Assembly (NCBI RefSeq): GCF_030013595.1
Contig: NZ_CP122768.1
DNA: 64,000 nucleotides
Direction: 5' to 3' (one strand)
Source: Escherichia coli
Lineage (GTDB): Bacteria; Pseudomonadota; Gammaproteobacteria; Enterobacterales; Enterobacteriaceae
The notes under the pieces are model-generated. The model was not told the DNA's origin. It worked only from the letters and a program-made list of their open reading frames with translations, and did no database searches. Below are positions 3,827 through 48,652 of the stretch, in pieces; position 1 is the first letter of the stretch, and each line of letters starts with the position of its first letter. The position numbers were made by a program, and so were the translations under genes.

Positions 3827-4840
3827 TCATTCTGCAGACAACATCAAGCGCAGCCGACCACCGGTTCCCCATATTTGGCATTGCCAGGCATCGCATCGCT
3901 GGCTCAATTGATTCAAATAAGCGTTACCTAAAGTGCCTAACGGAACACCATTACTGATTTGCACCTGGTGTTCGCCGGTATTTAACGTCGCATTCAGCCC
4001 CGCAGAAACCAGAATGAGATTTTTCAGTTCGCGATGATAATAGCCAACTAATAGCGGAAACTGCCCCGGCAGATTGGCCTGACGGAGTAAATGGTTTACC
4101 TGCTTCAATAACGCGCCCAACTCTGGCAACCGTTGATTTTGGTGTGCAAGCTGTTCCTGTAATAATCCGTTAAACAATGCGCGTAATAACAAGGCAGCAA
4201 GTACGCCATTATGTCCAGCTCGGGTGACATCAAGGCAATAAAATGCCAGATCGTTTTCCGAAAGTGCGGCAATATCAAGCACCAGGCCGGGTTTGTCCGC
4301 GGCAACCAATTGACGATAATTAACCCGGCAATGGGAAATCACCTGCTGAACCGGCGGTTGCAATTCCTGTAATAATTTCGCCGCTGCGGCAGGGTTATCA
4401 ACCATTGCATCCCAGTCGCGAAAAAGCCTTTCCTCTTCCTCAACGCGGGAATTAAACATGCTGGGATAGAGACAGGCAAAAACCATCTCGCGCAAGCGAT
4501 TCAGATCTTTAACTGGTTTCAGCAAAACATCTTCAACGCCCAGACGTAACGCTTTGGCAATATCTGCCATATTTTCAGTGGCAGATATCACGAGAACAGG
4601 TGTCTGGTCACCTCTGTTACGTATATGCTCCAGCAGTTTAAGCCCGTTCATTCGTGGCATCGCGATATCACATATCATCAGGTCTGGAGTGAAACCTCCC
4701 AGCAACTCAAGGGCATCCACCCCATCAGCCGCCAGTACCGTTGTCGCTCCCAATGAGGAAAACCACGAATCCAGAAGCGAGCGAAATACCTGCTCATCTT
4801 CAACAATGAGAATCTGTTTTCCGACCAATGGCTGCGTCAT
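3827..4840 (-). CDS. rssB: Response-regulator adaptor for RpoS proteolysis (RssB)
   Basis: 337 aa ORF with N-terminal receiver domain (ILIVEDEQVFR...DLMICDIAMPRMNGL) and PP2C-like C-terminal domain. Confidence 0.94.
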   Translation of the reverse strand: MTQPLVGKQILIVEDEQVFRSLLDSWFSSLGATTVLAADGVDALELLGGFTPDLMICDIAMPRMNGLKLLEHIRNRGDQTPVLVISATENMADIAKALRLGVEDVLLKPVKDLNRLREMVFACLYPSMFNSRVEEEERLFRDWDAMVDNPAAAAKLLQELQPPVQQVISHCRVNYRQLVAADKPGLVLDIAALSENDLAFYCLDVTRAGHNGVLAALLLRALFNGLLQEQLAHQNQRLPELGALLKQVNHLLRQANLPGQFPLLVGYYHRELKNLILVSAGLNATLNTGEHQVQISNGVPLGTLGNAYLNQLSQRCDAWQCQIWGTGGRLRLMLSAE

Positions 4841-4931
4841 GTTCTCTCCCCTGACTGGCTTTACTCAATAGTGGCATGCTATTGCCACCTGCGCCTGTCA
4901 GAATTAACTTAAGTGTAGATAAAAATTCTGG

Positions 4932-5837
4932 TCAAATGTTGGTGCGTACCAACGGCAAAAGTTCGTCCATTTTCTTTTCCACTGCCAGCTGCCCAGCCGC
5001 AATGGCAGCGTGCGCGCGATGGAAATCAAGCGTAGATATTTGCGGGCAAACAGGTTGAATCAGAATATCGGGCGGATCACCTGCCATGCGGTTCCTTTTA
5101 AGGCGGTTCTCCAGCACCTGGATAGAAGTGGTCATAATCTCTGTTGCCGTTGGCGCTGTCACCGCCCGACGTGTCGTTATGCTGCCCAACCTTTCTTTCA
5201 GACGCGCATGCCACGGTAGAGAATCACCATTCTCGCTATTTTCTTCACTGACATTAAAGGAGAGCAGATCTTGTTGCATCAAATGAGCATCGTGCTGCAG
5301 GTCGACCGCTATCACAATATCAGCACCCAATGCACGCGTGAGCGAAATAGGAATTGGGTTAACTACAGCGCCATCAACCAGCCAGTAGCCGTTATGCGCA
5401 ACGGGTGCCATTAGTCCTGGAATACTGCATGATGCACGAATAGCAAGATGGAGATCGCCTTCAGTAAACCATAATTCGCGCCCAGTACTTAAATTGGTGG
5501 CAACAGCCGCGAAGCGACGGGAACAATTTTCGATCTCTGTTTCCGGCATTATTTCGCGATATTGATTGAAGACACGCTCGCCGCGCAGTAACCCACCGCG
5601 CTGCCAGGAGAGATCCATCAGGCGTAAAACATCCCAATAACTGAAAGAGGTCACCCAATCTTCCAGCGCAGACAGTCGATCGCATGCATAGGCAGCGCCC
5701 ACCAGCGAACCAATTGAACATCCTGCAACGATATCAATTTCAATACCCACTTTTTTTAGCGCATTAATAACGCCAATATGCGACCAACCTCTCGCCGCGC
5801 CAGATCCCAGCGCCAGCCCTATTTTTATCTTTCTCAT
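4932..5837 (-). CDS. rssA: Patatin-like phospholipase RssA
   Basis: 301 aa ORF; patatin GxSxG/oxyanion motifs (GLALGSGAARGWSHIGV, AGCSIGS). Confidence 0.92.
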   Translation of the reverse strand: MRKIKIGLALGSGAARGWSHIGVINALKKVGIEIDIVAGCSIGSLVGAAYACDRLSALEDWVTSFSYWDVLRLMDLSWQRGGLLRGERVFNQYREIMPETEIENCSRRFAAVATNLSTGRELWFTEGDLHLAIRASCSIPGLMAPVAHNGYWLVDGAVVNPIPISLTRALGADIVIAVDLQHDAHLMQQDLLSFNVSEENSENGDSLPWHARLKERLGSITTRRAVTAPTATEIMTTSIQVLENRLKRNRMAGDPPDILIQPVCPQISTLDFHRAHAAIAAGQLAVEKKMDELLPLVRTNI

Positions 5838-24040: not shown

Positions 24041-24445
24041 CAGATATATCTCCTCCGATGACAGAAATCGGGGGAGATAATATAAATTCCTGCTTATTGT
24101 ATTTCTTCATACTACCTGAACAGGTTGTTAATCAGAATTGCGAGCCTGTACCAGAACCTGCACGAAACCACTGCAACAGCTGTTGAAAAGCCGGAATGTA
24201 CTCTTTATTGCAAACATTTCAGGGATGAAGTGAAGATGAATTGAGACGTAGTATCCACACCAAGCCGGCGTTATCCGGTGAGGCGCAATGTTGCGGGGGC
24301 TTTATCCCTGGTGGCATTGGTTGCTGGAAAGAGAAAACCCCCGCACGTTGAGAGGTAAAACCTGACAACAGAACGGGGGCTAATCTTGAACCATCAACAA
24401 TTCAAGAATAGCCGCAAAATGTTGTCATTACAACAAGGCGGCTAT

Positions 24446-24553
24446 ATGACGCTCGCGCAGTTTGCCATGATTTTCTGGCACGACCTGGCAGCACCGATCC
24501 TGGCGGGAATTATTACCGCAGCGATTGTCAGCTGGTGGCGTAACCGGAAGTAA
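24446..24553 (+). CDS. ldrA: Ldr-family small toxic peptide (35 aa)
   Basis: ATG to TAA encodes MTLAQFAMIFWHDLAAPILAGIITAAIVSWWRNRK, single TM helix; matches Ldr toxin family. Confidence 0.8.
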   Translation: MTLAQFAMIFWHDLAAPILAGIITAAIVSWWRNRK

Positions 24554-24602
24554 GGTGAAAACGGGCGTCAGGCTGCCGTGATGGCAATATGCGCCCGAAA
24601 CC

Positions 24603-24635
24603 GGCCGCAGGGGTAACAGCCTGCGGCCTTTTTTG
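24603..24635 (+). terminator. Rho-independent terminator of ldr transcript (copy 1)
   Basis: ggccgcagg-ggtaacag-cctgcggcc followed by T6. Confidence 0.75.
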
Positions 24636-24980
24636 TCTTTATCTCTTCCACAAGTAAATATTGGCAACCCGAGCTGGAAGCATCATCCAGAGCACTCATG
24701 AAACGACTGTAACAGCTGTTGAAAAACCGGAATGCACTCTTCATTGCATACATTTCAGGGATGAAGTGAAGATGAATTGAGTCGTAGTATCCACACCAAG
24801 CCGGCGTTATCCGGTGAGGCGCAATGTTGCGGGGGCTCTATCCCTGGTGGCATTGGTTGCTGGAAAGAGAAAACCCCCGCACGTTGAGAGGTATAACCTG
24901 ACAACAGAACGGGGGCTAATCTTGAACCAGAACAATTCAAGAATAGCCGCAAAATGTTGTCATTACAACAAGGCGGCTAT

Positions 24981-25151
24981 ATGACGCTCACGCAGTTTGC
25001 CATGACTTTCTGGCACGACCTGGCAGCACCGATCCTGGCGGGAATTATTACCGCAGCGATTGTCAGCTGGTGGCGTAACCGGAAGCAAGGTGAAAACGGG
25101 CGTCAGGCTGCCGTGATGGCAATATGCGCCCGAAACCGGCCGCAGGAGTAA
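24981..25151 (+). CDS. Ldr-family toxin variant with stop codon replaced by CAA (56 aa read-through form)
   Basis: MTLTQFAMTFWHDLAAPILAGIITAAIVSWWRNRK followed by Q (CAA at 25086-25088 where copy 1 has TAA) and 20 further codons through the terminator hairpin. Confidence 0.6.
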   Translation: MTLTQFAMTFWHDLAAPILAGIITAAIVSWWRNRKQGENGRQAAVMAICARNRPQE

Positions 25152-25170
25152 CAGCCTGCGGCCTTTTTTG
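25138..25170 (+). terminator. Rho-independent terminator of ldr transcript (copy 2)
   Basis: ggccgcagg-agtaacag-cctgcggcc followed by T6. Confidence 0.75.
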
Positions 25171-35131: not shown

Positions 35132-35185
35132 GTACGAGATTGACCAGTCAGCGCAAACTGACTGGTCAGCAAACTGCAGTATTTG

Positions 35186-37534: not shown

Positions 37535-37593
37535 TTAATTTGTTGTCTCATGAGGTTTCGCTAAATCTCATGAAGAGCGCAAAAGTATATAAA

Positions 37594-37620
37594 ATCCACG
37601 CAATTGCGTGGATTTTTCAT
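37594..37620 (+). terminator. Rho-independent terminator of pth-ychF
   Basis: atccacgc-aatt-gcgtggat followed by T5. Confidence 0.7.
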
Positions 37621-45216: not shown

Positions 45217-46635
45217 ATGGTAAACCTGGTCATAGTTTCACATAGCAGCCGACTGGGAGAAGGTGTCGGTGAATTAGCCCGTCAGATGTTAATGGGTGAT
45301 AGTTGTAAAATCGCCATTGCCGCGGGAATTGACGATCCACAAAATCCCATTGGTACCGATGCCGTCAAAGTGATGGAGGCCATCGAATCTGTTGCCGATA
45401 CCGACCATGTGCTGGTCATGATGGATATGGGTAGCGCATTATTGAGTGCTGAAACTGCGCTGGAATTGCTGGCTCCCGAGATCGCCGCAAAAGTACGTTT
45501 GTGTGCTGCACCGTTGGTCGAAGGTACACTGGCAGCAACGGTCAGCGCGGCCTCGGGGGCGGAGATCGACAAAGTTATCTTTGACGCCATGCATGCGCTG
45601 GAAGCCAAACGTGAACAACTGGGTTTACCCTCCTCCGACACTGAAATCTCTGACACATGTCCTCCGTACGATGAAGAAGCCCGTTCTCTGGCGGTGGTCA
45701 TTAAAAACCGTAACGGCCTGCATGTACGTCCGGCCTCCCGGCTGGTTTATACCTTATCGACATTTAATGCCGATATGTTGCTGGAGAAAAACGGCAAATG
45801 CGTCACACCGGAGAGTATTAACCAGATTGCGTTACTACAAGTTCGCTATAACGATACGCTGCGCCTGATTGCGAAAGGGCCAGAAGCTGAAGAGGCACTG
45901 ATCGCTTTCCGTCAGCTGGCTGAAGATAACTTTGGTGAAACGGAGGAAGTTGCTCCACCTATTCTGCGTCCCGTTCCGCCTGTTTCGGGTAAAGCCTTTT
46001 ATTATCAACCGGTTTTATGTACGGTACAGGCAAAATCAACCCTGACCGTGGAAGAAGAACAAGAACGATTACGCCAGGCCATTGACTTCACGTTATTAGA
46101 TCTGATGACGTTAACAGCGAAAGCAGAAGCCAGCGGGCTTGACGATATTGCCGCAATCTTTTCTGGTCACCATACACTGTTAGATGATCCGGAACTACTG
46201 GCGGCGGCAAGCGAACTCCTTCAGCATGAACATTGCACGGCAGAATATGCCTGGCAGCAAGTTCTTAAAGAACTTAGCCAGCAATACCAGCAACTGGATG
46301 ATGAATATCTACAGGCTCGCTATATTGATGTGGACGATCTTCTGCATCGCACCCTGGTCCACCTGACCCAAACGAAAGAAGAACTCCCGCAGTTTAACTC
46401 GCCAACTATTCTACTGGCGGAGAACATCTATCCCTCCACAATACTGCAACTGGATCCGGCGGTTGTAAAAGGTATCTGCCTTAGCGCCGGAAGTCCGCTA
46501 TCCCACAGCGCCCTGATCGCCCGTGAACTGGGGATTGGCTGGATTTGCCAGCAAGGTGAGAAACTGTATGCGATACAACCAGAAGAAACGCTAACGCTGG
46601 ACGTTAAAACGCAACGTTTCAGCCGTCAGGGTTAA
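45217..46635 (+). CDS. dhaM: Dihydroxyacetone kinase phosphotransfer subunit (EIIA-HPr-EI fusion)
   Basis: 472 aa from MVNLVIVSHSS; PTS HPr-like and EI-like segments. Confidence 0.94.
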   Translation: MVNLVIVSHSSRLGEGVGELARQMLMGDSCKIAIAAGIDDPQNPIGTDAVKVMEAIESVADTDHVLVMMDMGSALLSAETALELLAPEIAAKVRLCAAPLVEGTLAATVSAASGAEIDKVIFDAMHALEAKREQLGLPSSDTEISDTCPPYDEEARSLAVVIKNRNGLHVRPASRLVYTLSTFNADMLLEKNGKCVTPESINQIALLQVRYNDTLRLIAKGPEAEEALIAFRQLAEDNFGETEEVAPPILRPVPPVSGKAFYYQPVLCTVQAKSTLTVEEEQERLRQAIDFTLLDLMTLTAKAEASGLDDIAAIFSGHHTLLDDPELLAAASELLQHEHCTAEYAWQQVLKELSQQYQQLDDEYLQARYIDVDDLLHRTLVHLTQTKEELPQFNSPTILLAENIYPSTILQLDPAVVKGICLSAGSPLSHSALIARELGIGWICQQGEKLYAIQPEETLTLDVKTQRFSRQG

Positions 46636-46643
46636 ACCACCGT

Positions 46644-46672
46644 TCGGATGGCATCGTTCTGATGCCATCCGG
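46644..46672 (+). terminator. Perfect hairpin downstream of dhaM (possible terminator or REP-like element)
   Basis: cggatggcatc-gttct-gatgccatccg perfect 11-bp stem; no strong U-tract. Confidence 0.4.
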
Positions 46673-46954
46673 CTATTTACTCTGCACTAATGTTTTTTAA
46701 CTATCTGTTATATTTTTCACCAATTTATGATGATTTTTCTTCGCTAATCGCGAACCCAACGCCGCTGACTGGCTAACAAACAGACGTTATTTGATCACTC
46801 TATTTCGCCGTTATTTATCCCTTTAATTCCCTTTTCTAAAATGCCTGACCGTTCGCAGAATGAGATTTCGATCATGCAGCTAGTGCGATCCTGAACTAAG
46901 GTTTTCTGATACTTGAATACCGTTTTATTCGGTTTCGCCAAAGGAGAATGATTG

Positions 46955-48652
46955 ATGAAATCCCCCGCAGCTTCTCGCCCGCTAAAAATGGCGTTAATTC
47001 CAGCCTGCATTTTTTTGTGTTTCGCTGCGCTATCGGTGCAGGCAGAAGAAACACCGGTAACGCCACAGCCGCCTGATATTTTATTAGGGCCGCTGTTTAA
47101 TGATGTGCAAAACGCCAAACTTTTTCCGGACCAAAAAACCTTTGCCGATGCCGTGCCGAACAGCGATCCGTTGATGATCCTTGCTGATTATCGGATGCAG
47201 CAAAACCAGAGCGGATTTGATCTGCGCCATTTCGTTAACGTCAATTTCACCCTGCCGAAAGAGGGCGAGAAATATGTTCCGCCAGAGGGGCAATCACTAC
47301 GCGAACATATTGACGGACTTTGGCCGGTATTAACGCGTTCTACCGAAAATACCGAAAAATGGGATTCTCTGTTACCGCTGCCGGAACCTTATGTCGTGCC
47401 GGGCGGACGTTTTCGCGAGGTATATTACTGGGACAGTTACTTCACCATGTTAGGGCTTGCCGAAAGCGGTCACTGGGATAAAGTCGCGGATATGGTAGCC
47501 AATTTTGCTCATGAAATAGACACTTACGGGCATATTCCCAACGGCAACCGCAGTTACTATTTAAGCCGCTCGCAACCGCCCTTCTTTGCCCTGATGGTAG
47601 AGTTACTGGTGCAGCATGAAGGCGATGCCGCGTTGAAGCAATACCTGCCGCAAATGCAAAAAGAATATGCTTACTGGATGGACGGTGTTGAAAACCTGCA
47701 AGCCGGACAACAGGAAAAACGCGTTGTAAAACTTCAGGATGGTACCCTTCTCAACCGCTACTGGGACGATCGCGATACGCCACGACCAGAGTCATGGGTG
47801 GAAGATATTGCCACCGCCAAAAGCAATCCGAATCGACCTGCCACTGAAATTTACCGCGACCTGCGCTCTGCCGCTGCGTCTGGCTGGGATTTCAGCTCGC
47901 GCTGGATGGACAATCCGCAGCAGTTAAATACCTTACGCACCACCAGCATCGTACCGGTCGATCTGAACAGCCTGATGTTTAAAATGGAAAAAATCCTCGC
48001 CCGCGCCAGCAAAGCTTCCGGAGATAACGCGATGGCAAACCAGTACGAAACGCTGGCGAATGCCCGTCAAAAAGGGATCGAAAAATACCTGTGGAACGAT
48101 CAACAAGGCTGGTATGCCGATTACGACCTGAAAAGTCATAAAGTGCGCAATCAGTTAACCGCTGCCGCCCTGTTCCCGCTGTACGTCAATGCGGCAGCGA
48201 AAGATCGCGCCAACAAAATGGCGACGGCGACGAAAACACATCTGCTGCAACCAGGCGGCCTGAACACCACGTCGGTGAAAAGTGGACAGCAATGGGATGC
48301 GCCAAATGGCTGGGCTCCCCTGCAATGGGTGGCGACAGAAGGGTTGCAAAACTACGGGCAGAACGAGGTGGCGATGGACATTAGCTGGCACTTCCTGACC
48401 AATGTTCAGCACACTTATGACCGGGAGAAGAAGCTGGTCGAGAAATATGATGTCAGCACCACCGGAACAGGGGGCGGCGGTGGCGAATATCCATTACAGG
48501 ATGGCTTTGGCTGGACCAATGGCGTGACGCTGAAAATGCTGGATTTGATCTGCCCGAAAGAGCAACCGTGTGACAATGTTCCGGCGACGCGTCCACTCAG
48601 TGAATCAACAACACAGCCGGTAAAACAAAAAGAGGCGGAACCTACGCCTTAA
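46955..48652 (+). CDS. treA: Periplasmic trehalase
   Basis: 565 aa from [30 protein letters not shown] (signal peptide); glycoside hydrolase family 37 motifs. Confidence 0.95.

What the first reader, a model, noticed from the sequence alone, without database searches (positions are those of the whole stretch)
46644..46672. Perfect 11-bp stem hairpin between dhaM and treA
cggatggcatc-gttct-gatgccatccg follows the dhaM stop by 8 bp. It lacks a U-tract, so it may act as an mRNA-stabilising 3' structure or protein-binding palindrome rather than an intrinsic terminator.
Basis: seen in the sequence. Interest (0 to 1): 0.15.

Follow-up and report, generated by a model that had tools for sequence, protein, structure and literature searches.

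The report
dhaKLM mRNA 3'-end stem-loop
This is the stem-loop at the end of the E. coli dhaKLM messenger RNA, where a published genome-wide map already places the transcript's 3' end, so it is a real but ordinary feature of a known kind.

Summary
The hairpin is real. Its arms are at 46645-46655 and 46661-46671: 11 perfect pairs, loop GTTCT, plus a U·G pair at 46644/46672. It starts 8-9 nt after the dhaM stop codon. The window is E. coli. In K-12, published Term-seq data (Adams et al. 2021, PMC7815308, Supplementary file 1) list a "primary" dhaM 3' end at 1247656(-). That is 4 nt past this stem and corresponds to window 46675.

The tail (GCUAUUUACUCU; GCAAUUUACUC in most strains) scores 0.35-1.45 on a T-tract measure, against 4.2-5.0 for canonical terminators in the same window. 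The next 200 nt are G-poor with C/G of 1.7. The same paper reports a bicyclomycin-sensitive Rho termination region 546 nt downstream.

Among 44 E. coli-type sequences the stem has 1 variable site in 22, against 15 in 36 for the flanking non-coding sites (p = 0.002). That one stem change is G-C to G·U, which keeps pairing only in the dhaM-sense RNA. Most strains carry the G·U form, so the perfect stem is a minority allele.

Best reading: a 3'-end-defining, exonuclease-blocking stem-loop of a mostly Rho-terminated transcript. A weak intrinsic terminator is the main rival. The element is single-copy and not a REP element. Nothing supports a protein-binding palindrome. Already known in kind and already mapped; low interest.

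The parts
46633..46635 (+). dhaM stop codon TAA (dhaM CDS 45217-46635)
   Evidence: ORF list. RefSeq annotation of the 100% identical record NZ_CM149870.1, mapped onto the window.
46645..46655 (+). Left (5') arm of the stem, CGGATGGCATC. T46644 adds a U·G closing pair with G46672.
   Evidence: No variable site among 44 E. coli-type sequences.
46656..46660 (+). Loop GTTCT (ATTCT in 18 of 44 E. coli-type sequences)
46661..46671 (+). Right (3') arm GATGCCATCCG. C46665 is T in most E. coli, giving a G·U wobble in the sense RNA.
46675..46675 (+). Position homologous to the Term-seq 'primary' dhaM RNA 3' end of K-12 (NC_000913.3 1247656, minus strand). It lies 4 nt after the 11-bp stem.
   Evidence: Adams et al. 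2021, PMC7815308, Supplementary file 1, LB OD 0.4 sheet. Mapped through the K-12/window alignment.
46680..46879 (+). Untranslated, T-rich, G-poor spacer with C>G. Candidate Rho loading (rut) region; this role is inferred.
   Evidence: C/G = 1.7 and G = 14%. That is the 99th percentile for C/G and the 0.3rd percentile for G content among 200-nt windows of both strands. Dar & Sorek report C-over-G enrichment just downstream of such stem-loops.
46851..46954 (+). treA-proximal upstream block, conserved even in Escherichia lineages that lack the hairpin and spacer. Presumed treA promoter and 5' UTR; not part of the hairpin element.
   Evidence: Alignment A2

Best explanation
The hairpin is the 3'-terminal stem-loop of the dhaKLM mRNA. 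It forms in the dhaM-sense RNA just after the stop codon and fixes the steady-state 3' end a few nucleotides downstream of the stem.

Proposed mechanism: the stem is not followed by a U-tract, so most RNA polymerases read through it into the ~280-nt untranslated, G-poor, C>G spacer. Rho loads there and releases the transcript further downstream, in the spacer or the early part of treA. The 3'-to-5' exonucleases PNPase and RNase II then trim back until the stable stem (about -19 to -21 kcal/mol) stops them. The result is a sharp, protected 3' end, and treA is insulated from dhaKLM transcription.

Shown: the structure, its conservation, the in vivo 3' end in K-12, the poor U-tract, the composition of the spacer, and a bicyclomycin-sensitive region downstream. 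Inferred: that the Rho-terminated transcripts come from dhaKLM, that exonucleases create the observed end, and that the stem stabilises the mRNA.
For: (1) Structure. 11 perfect pairs plus one U·G; -20.9 kcal/mol; z = -5.6. The K-12 allele gives -19.5 kcal/mol, z = -4.6.

(2) In vivo 3' end. Adams et al. 2021 Term-seq lists 1247656(-), classified 'primary' for dhaM, 52,954 average reads, with RNA ending ...CAUCCGGCAA-3'. That is 4 nt after the stem and before the UUU.

(3) No U-tract. T-tail score is 0.87-1.45 for the window and 0.35-0.58 for K-12, against 4.2-5.0 for canonical terminators in the same window. There is no A-tract upstream.

(4) Downstream composition. 46680-46879 has C/G 1.7 and G 14%, extreme for this window.

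(5) Rho. The same paper's Supplementary file 2 gives a Rho termination region with its peak at 1247110(-), 546 nt downstream. Reads are 176 upstream and 9 downstream without bicyclomycin, and 195 and 151 with it. Rho score is 15.1, p = 5.7e-24 (method).

(6) Class description. Dar & Sorek 2018 found that Rho-dependent transcripts end immediately downstream of stable stem-loops without U-rich tails. C-over-G usage is enriched downstream, and the structures protect against PNPase and RNase II.

(7) Selection on the RNA. Among 44 E. coli-type sequences the stem has 1 variable site in 22, against 15 in 36 for spacer, loop and tail (Fisher p = 0.002). The one stem variant is G-C to G·U, and the base pair U·G becomes C-G in E. 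whittamii. Both keep pairing only in the dhaM-sense RNA.

(8) The hairpin stays with dhaM in E. whittamii although the downstream gene there is different.

(9) Non-homologous stable hairpins follow the dhaM stop in Citrobacter, Klebsiella, Yersinia, Cedecea, Pantoea and Rahnella.
Against: The Rho termination region peaks 546 nt away, just beyond the 500-nt association limit the authors used. It lies inside treA, so the bicyclomycin-dependent reads could come from treA-promoter transcripts rather than dhaKLM read-through.

A Rho score at the 3' end itself is not tabulated.

A 3' end at +4 could also arise by trimming of transcripts that terminated intrinsically at +7/+8.

The Term-seq end was called in only one of three growth conditions. 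It appears once in Supplementary file 1 and was placed on the LB OD 0.4 sheet by its position in the file (part 4 of 39).

There are no compensatory double changes; only two one-sided wobble changes were seen.

Two Escherichia lineages and C. amalonaticus lack the hairpin altogether, so it is dispensable.

All experimental data are from K-12, whose allele differs from the window at two positions (G·U in the stem, A for T in the tail).
Confidence: 0.55

Rival explanations
1. A weak, non-canonical intrinsic (Rho-independent) terminator. The strong stem, together with the interrupted U-rich tail (CUAUUUACUCU in the window, CAAUUUACUC in K-12), releases a useful fraction of polymerases by itself, perhaps helped by NusA or NusG. 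The released RNA is then nibbled back from +7/+8 to +4.
For: The stem energy and geometry are typical of terminators: 11-12 bp with a 5-nt loop. A lenient terminator scan calls it, with 13 pairs and 5 T in 8. Three U residues sit at +5 to +7. The in vivo 3' end is sharp and abundant. The window allele has both a stronger stem (C, perfect) and one more T in the tail than K-12. Pantoea species have a canonical hairpin plus T-tract at the same place.
Against: The tail score of 0.35-1.45 is far below the 4.2-5.0 of canonical terminators in the window. The residues next to the stem are G, C, A/U and A, which pair strongly in the RNA:DNA hybrid. The mapped 3' end precedes the U run. A bicyclomycin-sensitive termination region lies downstream.
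Confidence: 0.3
2. A DNA palindrome that serves as the binding site of a dimeric regulator, for example one acting on treA or on the dha operon.
For: It is a perfect 11-bp inverted repeat with a 5-bp spacer in the window. It lies in an intergenic region upstream of treA.
Against: It is about 280 bp upstream of the treA start codon, and outside the treA-proximal block that stays conserved where the hairpin is missing. In 37 of 44 E. coli-type sequences the DNA symmetry is broken by C to T, while RNA pairing is kept as G·U on the sense strand. An RNA 3' end maps right after it. No promoter-like site is found nearby.
Confidence: 0.03
3. A degenerate REP/BIME-like or other repeated extragenic palindrome, or a neutral leftover with no function. 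The outer stem, CGGATG...CATCCGGC, resembles the outer part of E. coli REP sequences; that resemblance is recalled from memory.
For: The outer 6-7 bp resemble REP ends. The hairpin and about 215 nt of spacer behave as an indel among Escherichia lineages.
Against: It is single-copy. The 39-nt query finds a median of 1 place per genome in 5319 of 5426 E. coli genomes at E <= 10, and one copy in the window with up to 3 mismatches. The inner stem and loop differ from REP. The stem is under stronger constraint than its flanks. It coincides with a mapped RNA 3' end.
Confidence: 0.05

Closest known systems
3'-terminal protective stem-loops of Rho-dependent E. coli transcripts (Dar & Sorek 2018, NAR, PMC6061677)
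   Same: A stable stem-loop lies immediately upstream of a precise steady-state 3' end. There is no U-rich tail and no upstream A-tract. C exceeds G just downstream. A bicyclomycin-sensitive region lies further downstream.
   Different: Rho dependence of the dhaKLM transcript itself has not been shown. The nearest tabulated Rho region is 546 nt away and inside treA. Dependence on exonucleases is untested.
Canonical intrinsic (Rho-independent) terminators
   Same: A GC-containing stem of 11-12 bp with a 5-nt loop, directly after a stop codon, with a sharp RNA 3' end nearby.
   Different: There is no contiguous U-tract (tail score 0.35-1.45 against 4.2-5.0). The residues next to the stem are G/C/A. 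The mapped 3' end is at +4, before the U run.
REP / BIME extragenic palindromes of E. coli
   Same: An intergenic, stable imperfect or perfect palindrome with CGGATG...CATCCGG-like outer stem. REPs are also known to act as 3' mRNA stabilisers (from general knowledge).
   Different: It is single-copy per genome. The inner stem and loop are unrelated to REP, and there is no flanking GTAG/CTAC motif.

Membership tests
Canonical intrinsic terminator | Stable G+C-containing stem-loop (about 5-14 bp, loop 3-8 nt) in the nascent RNA | tested here: met
   11-12 bp, 5-nt loop, -20.9 kcal/mol, z = -5.6
Canonical intrinsic terminator | U-tract of about 7-9 nt immediately 3' of the stem, with U residues proximal to it | tested here: not met
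   Tail is GCUAUUUACUCU (window) or GCAAUUUACUCA (K-12). T-tail score is 0.35-1.45 against 4.2-5.0 for four canonical terminators in the window.
Canonical intrinsic terminator | RNA 3' end inside the U-tract, about 7-9 nt after the stem | tested here: inconclusive
   The published Term-seq end is at +4, before the U run. Trimming after release cannot be excluded.
Canonical intrinsic terminator | Termination independent of Rho (insensitive to bicyclomycin) | tested here: inconclusive
   A bicyclomycin-sensitive region with Rho score 15.1 peaks 546 nt downstream. No score is tabulated at the site itself.
Protective 3' stem-loop of a Rho-dependent transcript (Dar & Sorek class) | Precise steady-state 3' end immediately downstream of an energetically stable stem-loop | tested here: met
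   3' end at K-12 1247656(-), 4 nt after the stem. Stem energy -19.5 to -21 kcal/mol.
Protective 3' stem-loop of a Rho-dependent transcript (Dar & Sorek class) | Reduced U content after the stem and no A-tract before it | tested here: met
   The upstream sequence is ACCACCGUU.
Protective 3' stem-loop of a Rho-dependent transcript (Dar & Sorek class) | C-over-G enrichment (rut-like sequence) just downstream | tested here: met
   46680-46879 has C/G 1.7 (99th percentile) and G 14% (0.3rd percentile).
Protective 3' stem-loop of a Rho-dependent transcript (Dar & Sorek class) | Bicyclomycin-dependent read-through beyond the 3' end by the same transcript | tested here: inconclusive
   Downstream sense reads rise from 9 to 151 with bicyclomycin. 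The origin of those transcripts, dhaKLM or the treA promoter, is not resolved.
Protective 3' stem-loop of a Rho-dependent transcript (Dar & Sorek class) | 3' end generated and limited by PNPase / RNase II | not testable with these tools
   Needs Term-seq or Northern blots in pnp and rnb mutants.
REP / BIME element | Many dispersed copies per genome sharing a consensus | tested here: not met
   Median of 1 place per genome in 5319 genomes. One copy in the window with up to 3 mismatches.
Described RNA families (Rfam 15) | Match to a curated covariance model | tested here: not met
   Only chance-level hits (E of 6 or more), none over the hairpin on the sense strand.

The most novel reading that the evidence does not exclude
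The hairpin and its ~215-nt G-poor spacer form a lineage-specific 'insulator cassette'. It is present in E. coli, Escherichia sp. MOD1-EC7003 and (hairpin only) E. whittamii. It is absent from two other Escherichia lineages and from C. amalonaticus, where the dhaM stop abuts the treA promoter block. Under this reading, its gain or loss switches treA between independent expression and co-transcription with the dihydroxyacetone kinase operon. The common G·U and rarer G-C stem alleles would then tune how much dhaKLM mRNA survives.
Probability: 0.12. Interest if true: 0.3.

Novelty: already known. Interest (0 to 1): 0.1.

Why it matters
It matters little beyond annotation. The hairpin marks the true 3' boundary of the dhaKLM transcription unit and explains why dhaKLM and treA, although co-directional and adjacent, behave as separate units. 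It is one more clear example of the 'stable stem-loop without U-tract' ends that characterise Rho-dependent E. coli transcripts. The natural G-C / G·U allele pair and the hairpin-less Escherichia lineages could serve as ready-made material for testing how such stems set mRNA stability. The principle itself is already established.

Tried and rejected
- Rfam scan of 46000-47400 at E <= 10: only chance hits.
- Repeat or REP hypothesis: rejected, since the element is single-copy in the window and in 5319 E. coli genomes.
- Promoter scan of 46300-47100: none found.
- Covariation test on 9 Escherichia haplotypes: no double compensatory changes, only two one-sided wobble changes. Too little divergence to be informative.
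- Other genera: the hairpins after dhaM are not homologous, so they cannot be aligned for covariation.
- Literature searches for dhaM, treA and terminator returned nothing specific. One search failed on syntax.
- Supplementary tables of Dar & Sorek 2018, the 3'-UTR valve paper and the Nanopore paper are not held.
- TERMITe and SMRT-Cappable-seq supplements do not list dhaM.
- Ju et al. 2019 and Peters et al. 2012 are not held.
- 3'UTR-derived sRNA or Hfq-target idea: no dhaM entries in the Hfq-CLASH supplements or in the sRNA literature search, so it was dropped.

Full report
**Observation.** The window sequence at 46636-46690 reads ACCACCGTT-CGGATGGCATC-GTTCT-GATGCCATCCG-GCTATTTACTCT. The repeat finder reports one inverted repeat in 46500-46900. 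Its arms are at 46645-46655 and 46661-46671: 11 nt, 100% complementary, 5 nt apart. The preceding ORF ends with TAA at 46635.

The window is Escherichia coli. An 801-nt query matches 5323 of 5426 complete E. coli genomes, and one record is 100% identical. RefSeq annotation of that record gives dhaK, dhaL, dhaM (window 45217-46635) and treA (46955-48652), all on the + strand. As RNA the stem-loop has -20.9 kcal/mol in a 65-nt context, z = -5.6, and none of 200 shuffles folds as well. The window has five distinct perfect hairpins with stems of at least 11 bp, against 0.1 expected per shuffle.

**Is there a U-tract?** The tail after the stem is GCTATTTACTCT. A lenient scan (5 T in 8) lists the site as terminator-like. 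A graded T-tail score of the d'Aubenton-Carafa/TransTermHP type gives a different picture. The window scores 0.87-1.45 and the K-12 allele (GCAATTTACTCA) 0.35-0.58. Four canonical terminators in the same window score 4.2-5.0.

**Experimental evidence from the literature.**
- Term-seq 3' end. Adams et al. 2021 (eLife, PMC7815308) mapped RNA 3' ends in K-12 MG1655. Supplementary file 1 lists a 3' end at 1247656 on the minus strand, classified 'primary' for dhaM, with 52,954 average reads. I assigned it to the LB OD 0.4 sheet from its position in the file (part 4 of 39). The flanking sequence is GTCAGGGTTAAGCCACTGTTCGGATGGCATCGTTCTGATGTCATCCGGCAA|TTTACTCAGC.
- Table layout. The table holds 50 nt, then the 3' end, then 10 nt. 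I checked this on the sgrS row. The RNA therefore ends ...CAUCCGGCAA-3', 4 nt after the 11-bp stem and before the UUU. Through the K-12/window alignment this corresponds to window position 46675. In K-12 the predicted stem can extend by three more pairs, which would leave the end 1 nt after the stem.
- Rho termination region. Supplementary file 2 of the same paper lists a Rho termination region with its peak at 1247110(-), inside treA and 546 nt downstream. Reads in the 800-nt windows are 176 upstream and 9 downstream without bicyclomycin, and 195 and 151 with it. The Rho score is 15.1 and p = 5.7e-24. The arithmetic (151/195)/(9/176) reproduces the score, which confirms the column order; the method is.
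- The described class. Dar & Sorek 2018 (PMC6061677) showed that Rho-dependent E. coli transcripts have precise steady-state 3' ends immediately downstream of stable stem-loops. These lack U-rich tails and upstream A-tracts, are followed by mild C-over-G enrichment, and protect against PNPase and RNase II.

**Sequence context.** The 200 nt after the hairpin (46680-46879) have C/G = 1.7 and 14% G. Among 200-nt windows of both strands of this window, that is the 99th percentile for C/G and the 0.3rd percentile for G content. This is the composition expected of a Rho loading region. No promoter-like site and no Rfam family was found there.

**Comparative evidence within E. coli.** A scan of one genome per species with DhaM returned 19 loci. 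A metagenome scan anchored in the dhaM 3' end returned 43 E. coli-type contigs. Among 44 E. coli-type sequences:
- The left arm is invariant.
- The right arm has one polymorphism. GATGTCATCCG occurs 37 times, K-12 included, and GATGCCATCCG occurs 7 times, the window included.
- The common allele has a G·U wobble in the dhaM-sense RNA. On the other strand the same position would be a C/A mismatch, and predicted stability there drops to a split helix.
- Variable sites number 1 of 22 in the stem, against 15 of 36 in spacer, loop and tail (Fisher p = 0.002).
- Across 5321 E. coli records, only 290 are at least 99% identical to the window over 39 nt. The element occurs once per genome.

**Comparative evidence beyond E. 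coli.**
- Escherichia sp. MOD1-EC7003 keeps 9 pairs.
- E. whittamii keeps a 12-bp version (TCCGGATGGCAT/ATGCCATCCGGA, U·G changed to C-G at the base) although its flanks differ. The downstream gene there is a convergent transporter-like ORF rather than treA. The hairpin therefore belongs to the dhaM 3' end and not to treA.
- A formal pair count finds no double compensatory change. Support comes from differential conservation and wobble-compatible changes, not from covariation.
- Two other Escherichia lineages (L004, L006) and C. amalonaticus lack the hairpin and about 215 nt of spacer. In them the dhaM stop abuts the conserved treA-proximal block.
- Other genera carry unrelated stable hairpins after dhaM. 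Pantoea has a canonical T-tract; Citrobacter, Klebsiella, Yersinia and Rahnella lack a clear one.

**Mechanism.** I am confident (about 0.85) that this is the stem-loop that defines the 3' end of the dhaKLM mRNA. How the polymerase is released is less certain.

The best-supported model (0.55) has four steps. The polymerase reads through the hairpin. Rho loads on the untranslated G-poor spacer and terminates downstream. Exonucleases trim back to the stem. The stem then protects the mRNA, and Rho keeps treA insulated from dhaKLM transcription.

The main rival (0.3) is a weak intrinsic terminator whose products are trimmed from +7/+8 to +4. The available tables cannot separate the two. The Rho region is 546 nt away and inside treA, so the bicyclomycin-dependent reads might originate at the treA promoter. 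No Rho score is given at the site itself.

A protein-binding DNA palindrome (0.03) is disfavoured for two reasons. The majority allele is asymmetric in DNA yet still pairs in RNA, and an RNA end maps right beside it. A REP-like or neutral palindrome (0.05) is disfavoured by single-copy status and by stem-specific constraint.

**Comparison with the known, and novelty.** The element works like the Dar & Sorek class and meets three of its five defining features here. One feature is inconclusive and one is untestable. It fails the U-tract criterion of canonical intrinsic terminators, and it fails the multi-copy criterion of REP elements. The 3' end is already in a published genome-wide table and the class has been described. 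I therefore rate it already known, with interest 0.1.

The only mildly novel angle is the presence/absence polymorphism of the hairpin-plus-spacer among Escherichia lineages, together with the G-C / G·U allele pair. These could be used to test insulation and mRNA stability (probability 0.12 that this has regulatory meaning).

**Basis of claims.** The properties of PNPase/RNase II stalling, the Rho loading requirements and the REP consensus are taken from the cited papers or from general knowledge, and were not tested here. All experimental data refer to K-12. Its allele differs from the window by C to T in the stem and T to A in the tail.

Noticed in passing
window 24386-25165: Two ~535-bp direct repeats, each ending in the same hairpin GGCCGCAGG-N8-CCTGCGGCC followed by T6 (24603-24628 and 25138-25163). 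Copy 1 encodes a 35-aa peptide MTLAQFAMIFWHDLAAPILAGIITAAIVSWWRNRK. From memory this looks like an Ldr type I toxin of the E. coli LDR repeats. In copy 2 the stop codon is CAA instead of TAA. Its ORF therefore runs on for 21 more codons (...RNRKQGENGRQAAVMAICARNRPQE) to a TAA in the loop of its own terminator hairpin.
   Followed up: partly
window 37591-37616: A perfect 11-bp hairpin AAAATCCACGC-AATT-GCGTGGATTTT with an A-tract before and a T-tract after, so it looks bidirectional. The same sequence appears in Adams et al. 2021 as an 'orphan' Term-seq 3' end at K-12 1256636(-).
   Followed up: no
window about 45636 (K-12 1248695, minus strand): Adams et al. 2021 also list an ORF-internal 3' end inside dhaM, with 25,192 reads, Rho score 1.1, not Rho-dependent, and intrinsic terminator score 1.36. 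What it represents is unknown.
   Followed up: no
L004:3919-4020 and L006:3919-4020, compared with window 46636-46850: Two Escherichia lineages (GTDB representatives 'E. coli' SCPM-O-B-8794 and Escherichia sp. E1V33) lack the hairpin and about 215 nt of spacer. In them the dhaM stop lies directly next to the conserved treA-proximal block. C. amalonaticus (L010, L011) has the same short arrangement.
   Followed up: partly
L005:3919-5330: In E. whittamii the hairpin is retained after dhaM. The next gene is a convergent 451-aa transporter-like ORF (3975-5330, minus strand) instead of treA, so the hairpin sits between two converging stop codons.
   Followed up: partly
window 35141-35168 and 62055-62083: Two further perfect 11-bp hairpins without T-tails: TGACCAGTCAG-CGCAAA-CTGACTGGTCA and ATAGTGTCCAT-CATTGTA-ATGGACACTAT. 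Their context was not examined.
   Followed up: no
E. coli genome collection: Twelve of about 5330 matches to the dhaM-treA junction lie on records labelled as plasmids. About 100 of 5426 genomes have no match at all. Neither point was examined.
   Followed up: no
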